A stretch of 62,998 nt of DNA, counting the filler, from Collodictyon triciliatum (Eukaryota), in the NCBI GenBank assembly GCA_043381765.1. It is 56 parts of 56 records of this genome, joined end to end, with 100 filler letters (N's around TTAATTAATTAA, not from the genome) between each part and the next. Parts side by side here need not be neighbours in the genome. Positions count along the whole stretch, not along the records: positions 21,473 to 22,500 come from JBHJMP010012640.1; 55 more parts are not named here. One strand, written 5' to 3'. The first letter of the stretch is position 1. Each line of letters starts with the position of its first letter. A program made the translations under genes and the position numbers. The notes below the pieces were generated by a model, which did not search any database, was not told where the DNA came from, and saw only the letters and a list, made by a program, of their open reading frames with translations. Positions 21,473 through 22,500 of this stretch are shown one piece after another.

Positions 21473-22500
21473 AATTTGACGACAAGAATGTAATTATTGG
21501 AGCAAAGACACAGGTTAGTCTGTGAGATACCAAATGTAATTTAAAATAAAATTATACATACATATATATATATATTGATACGCAATAAGCTAGATACGAT
21601 ACAAGTAGGGATGAAAATAAGTTATGTTCATTGTAATATGATGATTCCAGAAAGCTTTTTTTCTTCCCTGTTATTATTTTTCATTTGATTTGTAATACAT
21701 ATTTTTTTTAAAAAAAAAACAGACCTATCTCCTCGAAAAGTCTCGGGTTGTTCACGTATCGAAAGGGGAACGAAACTATCATATCTTTTATCAGGTAAAC
21801 ACAATACTTTACTCATGACAAAACTGCTTTAATAGAGTATTACATGTTATATAATATCCTCTTGTTACTAGCTTCCTTTATTGTAATTTTTTTTTCATAA
21901 AAAAAGCTTCTTGCTGGAGCTGATGCAAAGATGAGGAAACAGCTTCATCTCAGTGGAGGTCCACAAGACTATTTCTATCTCAATCAAAGGTACTTGAATT
22001 ATTCGTGTGCTTTATCGATTCATCAACGATATTTTCTTTTCTTTCTTTTGATGAACTAAATAATTTATAATTGGCTGAGTATGCTTTTTCTTCTTCTTCT
22101 TCCCCTCTTCCTCATTTAGTATCACACCACCTAAATTCACTATCTTAATTCTTTGAATCGAATAAAGGAAAAAAAAATTCACTATCTTAATTGATTGATT
22201 TATTTTTAGCCCTTGCTATGAACTACCAGATGTATCAGACAAAAATGACTTTGAAGCTACGTTAAATTCGATGAGGATTGTCGGAATCGCTGAGCCAGAG
22301 ATGAACAGCTCACTCAAGGTTGAAATGTATTCGCACTCAATCTTGTTGTAATTCATTTAAATATTATCTGCGAATTTCTAAATTTAAGATCGACATCCAC
22401 CCGATTCTCCCATCATCAACAAGGTTTTATCTGCAATTCTGCATCTCGGCCAACTAAAGTTTGTTGTACGCCGCCGACAGGAAGACTCTGCATCCATCGA
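21473..22500 (+). CDS. Myosin heavy chain motor domain, internal exons
   Basis: FDDKNVIIGAKT|YLLEKSRVVHVSKGERNYHIFYQ|LLAGA...DYFYLNQ|...DKNDFEATLNSMRIVGI|VLSAILHLGQLKF. Confidence 0.95.
22133..22192 (+). mobile_element. Ultra-short poly(A) retro-insertion with 18-bp TSD, in a myosin intron
   Basis: AAATTCACTATCTTAATT (22133-22150 and 22175-22192) flanks CTTTGAATCGAATAAAGG-An. Confidence 0.92.

What the first reader, a model, noticed from the sequence alone, without database searches (positions are those of the whole stretch)
22133..22192. Family of ultra-short (~18 nt + polyA) retro-insertions with full-length TSDs
Seen: CTTTGAATCGAATAAAGG(A)n or a close variant occurs 8 times in 5 unrelated contigs (4925, 8500, 22151, 25207, 25328, 25451, 39706, 39953), in both orientations. 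Four copies have perfect 15-19 bp direct repeats, and six begin within about 1 nt of the same 5' position. In element orientation the perfect TSDs start at TT|AA (twice), CT|AA and AT|AA. Established: polyA tail, ~15 bp TSD and T|A nick are hallmarks of target-primed reverse transcription by L1-clade ORF2p; random 5' truncation would not usually give one fixed length, and SINEs are far longer. Inference: this is either a minimal non-autonomous retroposon or a strong fixed truncation point. At about 1 copy per 8 kb here, it would be very abundant genome-wide.
Basis: partly seen in the sequence, partly recalled or inferred. Interest (0 to 1): 0.85.

Follow-up and report, generated by a model that had tools for sequence, protein, structure and literature searches.

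The report
Eighteen-base tail copies of a LINE
The short repeat is the last 18 bases plus A-tail of an L1-like jumping gene, copied into new sites almost always cut off at the same base, which is an unusual but explainable form of an ordinary process.

Summary
The 16-mer TTTGAATCGAATAAAG occurs 8 times with at most 1 mismatch, in 5 of the window's 56 concatenated ~1-kb contigs. Four copies have perfect 15-19 bp target-site duplications (TSDs) and six start at -17 to -19 from the A-tail.

It is not a free-standing element. A 1157-bp metagenome contig (L002) and the two longer window copies show that the 18 nt are the exact 3' terminus of a poly(A) LINE. Its ORF2 C-terminus carries a zf-RVT zinc knuckle. 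Distant full-length relatives have an APE endonuclease, RT and zf-RVT, and are closest to human L1 ORF2p.

The copies are therefore extreme 5'-truncated, dead-on-arrival insertions made by target-primed reverse transcription (TPRT). Their 5' endpoints are sharply non-random: copy number drops from 8 to 2 at -18/-19, and nothing is 9-16 nt long.

The cause of the fixed endpoint is not shown. I favour reverse-transcriptase release or template jump at the base of a weak terminal hairpin. A pre-cut RNA template or a separate master gene remains possible. The genome-wide length distribution, empty sites and abundance could not be tested.

The parts
22133..22192 (+). Copy C, the finding itself. TSD AAATTCACTATCTTAATT at 22133-22150; insert CTTTGAATCGAATAAAGG plus A-run at 22151-22174; TSD repeated at 22175-22192. 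Starts at -18.
8481..8543 (-). Copy B. 19-bp perfect TSD at 8525-8543 and 8481-8499; insert at 8500-8524. Starts at -18.
25189..25252 (+). Copy D. 18-bp perfect TSD; insert at 25207-25234. Starts at -19 (AC...).
25313..25367 (-). Copy E. 15-bp perfect TSD; insert at 25328-25352. Starts at -18.
25436..25482 (-). Copy F, an older copy. Insert at 25447-25471 with TCG>TCA and GG>GA changes. TSD of about 11 nt with 2 differences, one at a CpG. Starts at -18.
4925..4947 (+). Copy A. TTTGAATCGAATAAAGGG plus A5. Starts at -17 (or -18 with C>T). Only an imperfect TSD.
39706..39744 (-). Copy G, a longer copy. It holds 32 nt of the LINE end (TAACCTCGCTACAC + TTCGAATCGAATAAAG) and a TAC-interrupted A-tail. 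No clear TSD.
39942..40101 (-). Copy H, a longer copy. It holds 126 nt of the LINE 3' UTR plus A8 (39954-40089), 94.9% identical to L002 over 137 nt. Flanked by a 12-nt TSD with 2 transitions (40090-40101 and 39942-39953).
35007..36036 (-). Contig c32, body of the same LINE family. ORF2 C-terminal region (open frame 35235-36035). Its last 465 nt are 93.3% identical to L002 (-1046 to -582 from the LINE end).
36917..37160 (-). Contig c33, another fragment of the LINE body (-462 to -216 from the end), 95.1% identical to L002 over 246 nt. It breaks off at -216.

Best explanation
The units are target-primed reverse-transcription insertions of the extreme 3' end of an active or recently active L1-like poly(A) LINE. 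This LINE has a C-terminal CCHC zinc knuckle, an AATAAA signal 2 nt before a short A-tail, and 15-19 bp TSDs.

Proposed steps:
1. The element's endonuclease nicks T|AA-type sites.
2. The freed T-rich 3' end primes on the short A-tail.
3. The reverse transcriptase (RT) copies only the terminal 18 nt.
4. cDNA synthesis on the LINE RNA then ends almost always at the same base, C(-18) +/- 1, and the 5' end is joined flush to the target.

I place the cause during reverse transcription. The 18 nt are exactly a weak terminal hairpin (C-18 pairs with G-1). I infer that this is the RT's grip on its own RNA. Once it is copied and unwound, the enzyme tends to let go or jump to the target DNA.

What is shown: identity with the LINE tail, the TSDs, the A-tails and the non-random endpoint. 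What is inferred: the L1-type enzyme for this particular element, and the release-at-hairpin-base step.

My confidence that these are TPRT copies of this LINE's tail is about 0.9. The figure given below covers the whole statement including the mechanism of the fixed endpoint.
For: 1. Parent element. On its minus strand, L002 runs from an ORF2 C-terminus (zf-RVT, E 1.5e-7) through about 150 nt of UTR. It ends ...CATAACCTCGCTACACTTTGAATCGAATAAAGG + A10.

2. Window pieces of the same family:
- c32: 93.3% over 465 nt.
- c33: 95.1% over 246 nt.
- Copy H: 94.9% over 137 nt.
- Copy G also shares the 14 nt upstream of the motif.

3. Enzyme type.
- The c32 ORF finds 18 proteins.
- Of the 6 scanned with Pfam, the 4 long ones (906-1275 aa) all have Exo_endo_phos + RVT_1, and 3 of them also have zf-RVT.
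- One of these, P0013, matches human L1 ORF2p at E 4.9e-87, against R2 at 1.8e-25.

4. TPRT marks.
- 4 of 8 copies have perfect 15-19 bp TSDs.
- All 8 end in A5-A11 runs, or an interrupted A-run.
- All 4 perfect TSDs start T|AA.

5. Non-random endpoint.
- A scan anchored only on AAAG(G)+A-run finds nothing between 9 and 16 nt.
- It finds six copies at 17-22 raw match length and one at 126.
- Copy number along the LINE end is 8 (last 17 nt), 2 (-20 to -31), 1 (-32 to -125), and at most 1 further up.
- P(>=6 of 8 in a 3-nt window) is <=1.3e-3 under the best-fitting geometric fall-off and 2.3e-9 under a uniform model after correction.

6. Independent data. Two contigs of run X4 match from exactly 25208 (= C-18) and differ upstream. 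One X4 contig repeats the same 10-12 nt on both sides of the unit (table 7).

7. Youth of the short copies.
- 3 of 6 short copies are 100% identical to L002 over 27-29 nt. A fourth differs only outside the element, in flank and A-run length, while body fragments are 93-95% identical.
- These are the only poly(A) insertions with perfect TSDs in the window: 4 of 5 scan hits, the fifth being low-complexity.

8. Hairpin. The predicted hairpin spans exactly the unit.
Against: - The hairpin is weak and no better than shuffles: -1.3 kcal/mol, z -0.51. The 3' 222 nt and 61 nt fold no better than shuffles either (z -0.55 and -0.02). No relatives were available to test covariation.
- The sample is only 8 copies from about 58 kb of small unplaced contigs. 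These contigs are repeat-enriched and cannot hold long insertions.
- The endonuclease and RT domains of this very element were not seen. Only its C-terminal third was, and that ORF alone hits neither Pfam nor PDB.
- The link to L1 goes through relatives at 33-35% identity over about 100 residues.
- Flush junctions with 0-1 nt spread fit a pre-defined RNA 5' end at least as well as enzyme release.
- No microhomology is seen at the 5' junctions (0-1 nt, by eye), so a homology-guided jump is not supported.
Confidence: 0.5

Rival explanations
1. Same LINE and same TPRT, but the endpoint is set before reverse transcription. The template is a pre-cut 3' fragment of LINE RNA beginning at -18. It would arise by endonucleolytic or small-RNA-guided cleavage, or by 5'-to-3' trimming down to the part protected by the bound protein. 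The RT then simply runs off its end.
For: - The endpoint is very tight: 4 copies at -18, 1 at -19, 1 at -17/-18.
- The junctions to the TSD are flush.
- No structure upstream of -18 is predicted that could stop an RT.
- A cDNA-type run (X1, which carries a template-switch-oligo-like loose end) has summed contig depth 1751.7 over the unit against about 8 in the flanks. Poly(A) RNA carrying this tail is therefore plentiful.
Against: - No RNA starting at -18 was seen. Contigs cannot show RNA ends (header).
- No ribozyme, tRNA-like or other Rfam feature is found next to -18.
- An 18-nt RNA with a 5-11 nt tail is a poor candidate for stable ribonucleoprotein formation (inference).
Confidence: 0.25
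2. A true minimal non-autonomous retroposon. One or a few master loci, for example with an upstream promoter, would transcribe an RNA of 18 nt plus encoded A-run. This RNA borrows the LINE's tail and is mobilised in trans.
For: - The length is fixed and the sequence is identical among the young copies.
- A precedent exists for a LINE 3' end living as a separate short retroelement: Drosophila suffix and the F element (abstracts of PMC1868783 and PMC3136478).
Against: - The whole unit is colinear with the LINE terminus and has no head of its own.
- Copies of 32 and 126 nt form a tail of longer truncations of the same RNA.
- 18 nt cannot hold an internal promoter, and no tRNA- or Rfam-type gene was found.
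- No candidate master locus was seen.
Confidence: 0.1
3. Sampling effect. The LINE simply has very low processivity, and the apparent spike at -18 comes from 8 copies in repeat-rich 1-kb contigs. Genome-wide, the lengths would spread broadly.
For: - The sample is only 8 copies.
- The contigs are about 1 kb, unplaced, and end in microsatellites, so long copies cannot be scored.
- Two doubtful, degenerate look-alikes exist at 44823 and 50920.
Against: - Within the range that can be scored (9-400 nt), 6 of 8 copies fall in a 3-nt window and none at 9-16 nt.
- The best geometric model gives P <= 1.3e-3 and cannot also give the 126-nt copy.
- Two X4 contigs from other loci also begin at -18.
Confidence: 0.1
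4. Artefact: a library adapter, an assembly chimera or a chance repeat.
For: The assembly is highly fragmented.
Against: - There are 6 exact 16-mers where chance gives essentially none.
- Each copy has its own perfect TSD.
- The motif is contiguous with LINE coding sequence in an independent metagenome contig.
- It is present in contigs of other runs.
Confidence: 0.01

Closest known systems
5'-truncated ('dead-on-arrival') insertions of L1-clade LINEs made by target-primed reverse transcription
   Same: The copies share the A-tail after AATAAA and 15-19 bp TSDs. They share T|AA-type nick sites and colinearity with the parent's 3' end. The ORF2 has a C-terminal zinc knuckle.
   Different: Truncation in mammalian L1 is spread over kilobases (established knowledge, recalled). 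Here 6 of 8 copies stop within 3 nt of one base, only 18 nt from the tail. A-tails are short (5-11 nt) even in copies with perfect TSDs.
Drosophila suffix, a short retroelement identical to the 3' end of the F-element LINE (PMC1868783 and PMC3136478, abstracts seen)
   Same: It is a fixed-length unit that equals a LINE's 3' end and is scattered as separate copies.
   Different: Suffix is a few hundred nt long (length recalled), includes the last RT coding domain, and is itself transcribed. The unit here is 18 nt, purely 3' UTR, and no transcript of its own is shown.
Stringent-type LINE 3'-tail recognition, including L1-clade lineages with a conserved structured 3' end (PMC4176376 abstract; PMC3472496 abstract and introduction)
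   Same: A short specific 3'-terminal sequence next to the tail appears to be all that is carried into new sites. No other poly(A) retrocopies with perfect TSDs are seen in the window. This fits an enzyme that prefers its own tail.
   Different: The hairpin here has 5 predicted base pairs and is not better than shuffles. No partner SINE and no functional test are available.
SINEs, including very short ones such as Platy-1 of about 100 bp (PMC4864456, abstract seen)
   Same: They are non-autonomous and depend on LINE machinery, with an A-tail and TSDs.
   Different: The unit has no small-RNA-derived head and no room for a promoter. It is about five times shorter than that shortest primate SINE.

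Membership tests
L1-superfamily non-LTR retrotransposon (parent element) | C-terminal CCHC zinc knuckle after the RT (Pfam zf-RVT) | tested here: met
   The L002 ORF matches zf-RVT at E 1.5e-7, 32.4 bits, above the 27.5-bit cut-off.
L1-superfamily non-LTR retrotransposon (parent element) | APE-type endonuclease plus non-LTR RT in one ORF2 | tested here: inconclusive
   Only the C-terminal third of this element is held. The c32 ORF has no Pfam hit and no PDB hit. Its distant relatives P0008, P0013, P0015 and P0010 (28-35% identity) have Exo_endo_phos + RVT_1. P0013 matches human L1 ORF2p at 4.9e-87.
L1-superfamily non-LTR retrotransposon (parent element) | Poly(A) tail following an AATAAA signal at the 3' end | tested here: met
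   The end reads ...GAATAAAGG followed by A5-A11 in L002 and 7 of 8 window copies. One copy has an interrupted tail.
L1-superfamily non-LTR retrotransposon (parent element) | Variable-sequence TSDs of about 7-20 bp at T-rich|A-rich nick sites | tested here: met
   Four perfect TSDs of 15, 18, 18 and 19 bp, all starting T|AA. The leading A's are ambiguous with the tail.
L1-superfamily non-LTR retrotransposon (parent element) | ORF1 upstream of ORF2 | not tested
   No 5' part of the element is held in the window or in L002.
SINE (non-autonomous retroposon with its own promoter) | Head derived from tRNA, 7SL or 5S RNA with an internal Pol III promoter | tested here: not met
   The unit is 18 nt and wholly colinear with the LINE UTR. 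ARAGORN and Rfam find nothing in L002 or the window.
SINE (non-autonomous retroposon with its own promoter) | 3' tail shared with a partner LINE | tested here: met
   The unit is identical to the LINE's last 18 nt.
Stringent-type LINE tail (specific 3' stem-loop recognised by the RT) | Conserved, stable 3'-terminal stem-loop required for mobilisation | tested here: inconclusive
   A 5-bp hairpin spans exactly the unit but has -1.3 kcal/mol and z -0.51. No relatives were available for covariation and there is no assay.
Suffix-like separate LINE-end retroelement | Independent transcription of the short unit | not testable with these tools
   The runs were held as contigs only, which cannot show RNA starts.

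The most novel reading that the evidence does not exclude
This LINE's main recent product may be a fixed 18-nt 'micro-retroposon': its own RT-recognition hairpin plus a short A-tail. That would be the smallest unit known to be mobilised by target-primed reverse transcription. It would define the minimal template an L1-like enzyme needs. It would also seed the genome, below the detection limit of repeat annotation, with ready-made AATAAA polyadenylation signals. The unit could arise from a protected or pre-cut RNA fragment, or from obligatory enzyme release once the hairpin is copied.
Probability: 0.25. Interest if true: 0.7.

Novelty: new variant of a known kind. Interest (0 to 1): 0.45.

Why it matters
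If the spike at -18 holds genome-wide, it gives a natural read-out of where an L1-like reverse transcriptase, or its template, ends. It would be a handle on the initiation-to-elongation step of TPRT and on how little 3' sequence is needed for priming.

In practical terms, insertions of about 25 nt are missed by standard repeat annotation. Yet each carries an AATAAA signal and an A-run that can seed microsatellites. Retrotransposition activity and its mutational load would then be under-counted in this organism.

If the spike does not hold, these are ordinary LINE tails.

Tried and rejected
- **Whole genome.** None is held for this window, so the proposed census could not be run.
- **Empty-site test.** Contigs of runs X1-X4 were laid on c23. 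No contig bridges any of the three insertion sites, so presence/absence could not be judged. Parts without cover say nothing.
- **Run search.** Only small shares were found (best 0.22), and no run of the organism itself as raw reads.
- **Structure.** Folds of the LINE 3' end and of the unit are no better than shuffles.
- **RNA families and tRNA.**
  - Rfam on the window at gathering threshold: 0 hits.
  - Rfam on L002 at E<=1: 2 weak lncRNA hits on the other strand, dismissed.
  - ARAGORN on L002: 0 hits.
  - So no ribozyme or tRNA-like cleavage signal was found near -18.
- **Protein searches.**
  - The search for homologous proteins, 'longer': none.
  - PDB with the c32 ORF: none.
  - Atlas on the unrelated ORF 33875-34699: no usable hit.
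  - Cluster look-up gave no names or organism.
- **More copies elsewhere.**
  - Two viral-contig scans: 0 hits.
  - Genome contigs: 5 hits, all in Flavobacteriia-type bacterial records without A-tail context, taken as chance.
  - The metagenome hits L001, L003 and L004 are likewise chance.
- **Earlier notes of this scan.** Nothing was found.
- **Papers.**
  - The motif and its reverse complement are in no held paper.
  - Three phrase searches for truncation hot spots returned 0 papers. The prime sign in 5' probably defeats such phrases, so this is weak evidence that the phenomenon is unpublished.
  - One search listed 4 papers, none on point.
  - Supplements were not consulted.
- **Fixed total cDNA length instead of fixed template position.** Not supported. 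The copy starting at -19 has the longest A-run and the -17 copy the shortest, but n = 6.
- **Splice-acceptor origin of the -18 end.** Rejected by eye: there is no AG before -18.

Full report
**What the window is.** The 62,998 bases are 56 separate contigs of 1020-1037 bp, sorted by size. They are joined by spacers of 44 N, TTAATTAATTAA and 44 N. It is a pseudo-molecule of small unplaced contigs of a eukaryote, many of which end in microsatellites. No whole genome is held. Copy densities in such a window cannot be extrapolated.

**The observation.**
- TTTGAATCGAATAAAG gives 9 matches at <=3 mismatches: 6 exact, 2 with one mismatch and 1 with three. Shuffles give 2.65 +/- 1.58, and 0 of 100 reach 9. 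The three-mismatch hit at 61287 has no A-tail and I dropped it.
- The 8 copies lie in 5 contigs, on both strands, each with its own flanks.
- I scanned both strands for perfect direct repeats of >=11 nt, up to 400 nt apart, whose intervening sequence ends in A6 or more. This returned 5 hits. Four are this family (TSDs of 19, 18, 18 and 15 bp) and the fifth is a CA-rich low-complexity match.
- The copy at 25447-25471 has a TSD of about 11 nt with two differences, one at a CpG. It also carries a TCG>TCA change in the unit, so it is older.
One caveat: A's at the start of a TSD cannot be separated from the A-tail.

**What the 18 nt are.**
- The copies at 39706-39744 and 39954-40089 are longer. Both share TAACCTCGCTACAC immediately upstream of the motif.
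- One scan of metagenome contigs with the motif plus A-run gave four loci. Three are chance matches without tail context.
- The fourth, L002 (1157 bp), read on its minus strand, is about 1 kb of a LINE. It has an open frame with a zf-RVT zinc knuckle (E 1.5e-7) and about 150 nt of UTR. It then ends ...CATAACCTCGCTACACTTTGAATCGAATAAAGG + A10, followed by unrelated flank.
- BLAST of L002 against the 56 contigs finds four longer pieces of the same family: c32 (-1046 to -582 from the LINE end, 93.3% of 465 nt), c33 (-462 to -216, 95.1% of 246 nt), the 126-nt copy (94.9% of 137 nt) and the 32-nt copy.
- It also finds six tails that begin at -17 to -19.
- The unit is therefore the exact 3' terminus of a LINE, not a free-standing sequence.

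**What kind of LINE.**
- The c32 open frame (266 aa) has no Pfam or PDB match by itself.
- An exhaustive HMMER search finds 18 proteins. They include near-identical fragments (P0001, 96%) and distant full-length proteins of 906-1275 aa.
- Of 6 hits scanned with Pfam, the 4 long ones carry Exo_endo_phos + RVT_1, and 3 of them also carry zf-RVT.
- P0013 matches human LINE-1 ORF2p at 4.9e-87, far better than it matches R2 proteins at 1.8e-25.
- Together with AATAAA just before a poly(A) tail and 15-19 bp TSDs at T|AA sites, this places the parent with L1-like elements.
- Its own endonuclease, RT core and ORF1 were not seen, so membership rests partly on distant relatives.

**The fixed endpoint.**
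- To avoid censoring by the 16-mer query, I anchored only on AAAG(G)+A-run and extended upstream against the L002 consensus.
- A-rich microsatellites give 7-8 nt matches. Nothing gives 9-16 nt. Six copies give 17-22 nt raw (17-19 nt once TSDs are subtracted) and one gives 126 nt. The 32-nt copy has an interrupted tail and escapes this anchor.
- Starts are -18 in four copies, -19 in one and -17 or -18 in one.
- Copy number along the LINE end thus steps from 8 to 2 at -19/-20, then to 1.
- The probability of >=6 of 8 endpoints in one 3-nt window is at most 1.3e-3 under the best-fitting constant fall-off model. That model cannot also yield a 126-nt copy. Under a uniform model after correction it is 2.3e-9.
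- Two further degenerate look-alikes at 44823 and 50920 are doubtful and were not counted.

**Independent data.**
- Only runs with small shares of the stretch were found. All are kept as contigs.
- I laid X1-X4 on contig c23. Summed contig depth over the unit (25205-25239) is 1751.7 in X1 against about 8 beside it, and 14.3 in X4 against 0-2.6 beside it.
- In X4, two contigs match from exactly 25208 (= C-18) and differ from each other and from the window upstream.
- One X4 contig shows the same 10-12 nt before the unit and after its A-run. That is another TSD-flanked short copy at another locus.
- One X1 loose end looks like part of a template-switch cDNA oligo (recognised from memory). X1 is therefore probably cDNA, and poly(A) RNA with this tail is plentiful there.
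- Contigs cannot show where RNAs start, and none bridged the insertion sites. Neither the empty-site test nor the small-RNA test could be done.

**How it most likely works.**
- Shown: the LINE tail, the A-run, the TSDs and the non-random endpoint.
- Follows from established TPRT: the endonuclease nicks the bottom strand at T|AA. The T-rich 3' end pairs with the A-tail. The RT copies the RNA from its 3' end. A staggered second nick 15-19 bp away gives the TSD.
- Inferred: why copying ends at -18. The minimum-energy fold of the unit pairs C-18 with G-1, so the unit is exactly one small terminal hairpin. It is weak and no better than shuffles.
- I favour (0.5) release or template jump of the RT once this presumed recognition hairpin has been copied.
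- The main rival (0.25) is an RNA already cut or trimmed to -18, which fits the flush junctions equally well.
- A separate master gene (0.1), a sampling effect (0.1) and artefact (0.01) follow.
- Short A-tails (5-11 nt) even in the youngest copies fit an enzyme that recognises its own tail rather than any poly(A). So does the absence of other poly(A) retrocopies with perfect TSDs.
- Some L1-clade lineages do recognise their own tail in this way (PMC3472496, abstract and introduction read; PMC4176376, abstract).

**Age.**
- Three of the six short copies are 100% identical to L002 over 27-29 nt. A fourth differs only outside the element. Four carry perfect TSDs. Body fragments differ from L002 by 5-7%.
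- The stretch is short, so this is only a hint. It suggests that the family's recent output in this sample is dominated by the 18-nt form.

**Comparison and novelty.**
- The thing works like, and almost certainly is, 5'-truncated LINE insertion, which is textbook.
- What departs from the textbook is the single sharp endpoint only 18 nt from the tail.
- The nearest precedent for a LINE 3' end dispersed as a unit of fixed length is Drosophila suffix and the F element (abstracts). That unit is far longer and is transcribed on its own.
- The unit fails the SINE test, having no head and no promoter.
- I found the motif in no held paper. Three phrase searches for truncation hot spots returned nothing, but these searches are weak and supplements were closed.
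- I rate it a new variant of a known kind, with interest 0.45. It is real, clean and odd, but it rests on eight copies and has an ordinary parent.

**Limits.**
- The organism is unknown.
- There are eight copies only.
- There is no genome-wide census, no reads, no RNA ends and no enzyme sequence for the 5' two-thirds of the element.

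Noticed in passing
window 1033-1132 and every ~1.13 kb thereafter: The window is not one locus. It is 56 contigs of 1020-1037 bp in descending size order, joined by N44-TTAATTAATTAA-N44 spacers that carry stops in all six frames. Distances between features in different contigs are meaningless.
   Followed up: yes
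window 25580-25881: A second high-copy repeat lies in contig c23. Summed contig depth reaches 3441 in the cDNA-like run X1 and 347 in X4, with several variant positions and many short contigs ending at 25580. Its identity was not determined.
   Followed up: no
window 25189-25482: Three independent short copies, in two orientations, sit within 300 bp of one contig. Contig c36 also holds two copies within 400 bp. So 5 of 8 copies are in 2 of 56 contigs, which suggests local insertion hot spots or repeat-rich neighbourhoods.
   Followed up: partly
window 25472-25516: A perfect 13-bp inverted repeat (AATATCGTTAGCT ... AGCTAACGATATT, 11-nt loop) directly abuts the 5' junction of copy F. Part of it serves as that copy's TSD.
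   Followed up: no
window 38836-39414 (+): The open frame resembles the same C-terminal region of the LINE ORF2 but is much diverged. Only a 26-nt DNA match to L002 was found. It is probably a second, older LINE family, and it runs into a microsatellite at the contig end.
   Followed up: partly
window 36917-37160 (-): The LINE fragment in c33 matches L002 up to -216 from the LINE end and then switches abruptly to unrelated sequence. This is a 3' deletion, a rearrangement or another insertion.
   Followed up: partly
window 28236-29262 (-): The whole contig is one open frame of Ephrin_rec_like / TNFR-type cysteine-rich repeats (9 stretches, E 7.4e-55). It is a likely host gene exon.
   Followed up: partly
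window 13523-14446 (-): A 307-aa open frame with an NHL repeat (E 1.7e-8). It is a likely host gene fragment.
   Followed up: partly
window 44823-44853 and 50920-50945 (+): Two degenerate look-alikes of the unit (84-85% over 26-32 nt), each followed by an A-rich run. One begins at about -19. They may be old copies and were not counted.
   Followed up: partly
window 24959-25200 (run X3) and 25597-25824 (run X2): A lake-water metagenome run holds a 242-nt contig with 2 differences on the unique flank of c23. A freshwater metagenome run holds a 228-nt identical contig on the repeat part. The organism or a close relative therefore seems to occur in fresh water. No sample was traced.
   Followed up: partly
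window 42891-43915: The contig is filled by a tandem repeat that is open in several frames (repeating peptide units), with GC 0.53. It looks like a satellite.
   Followed up: no
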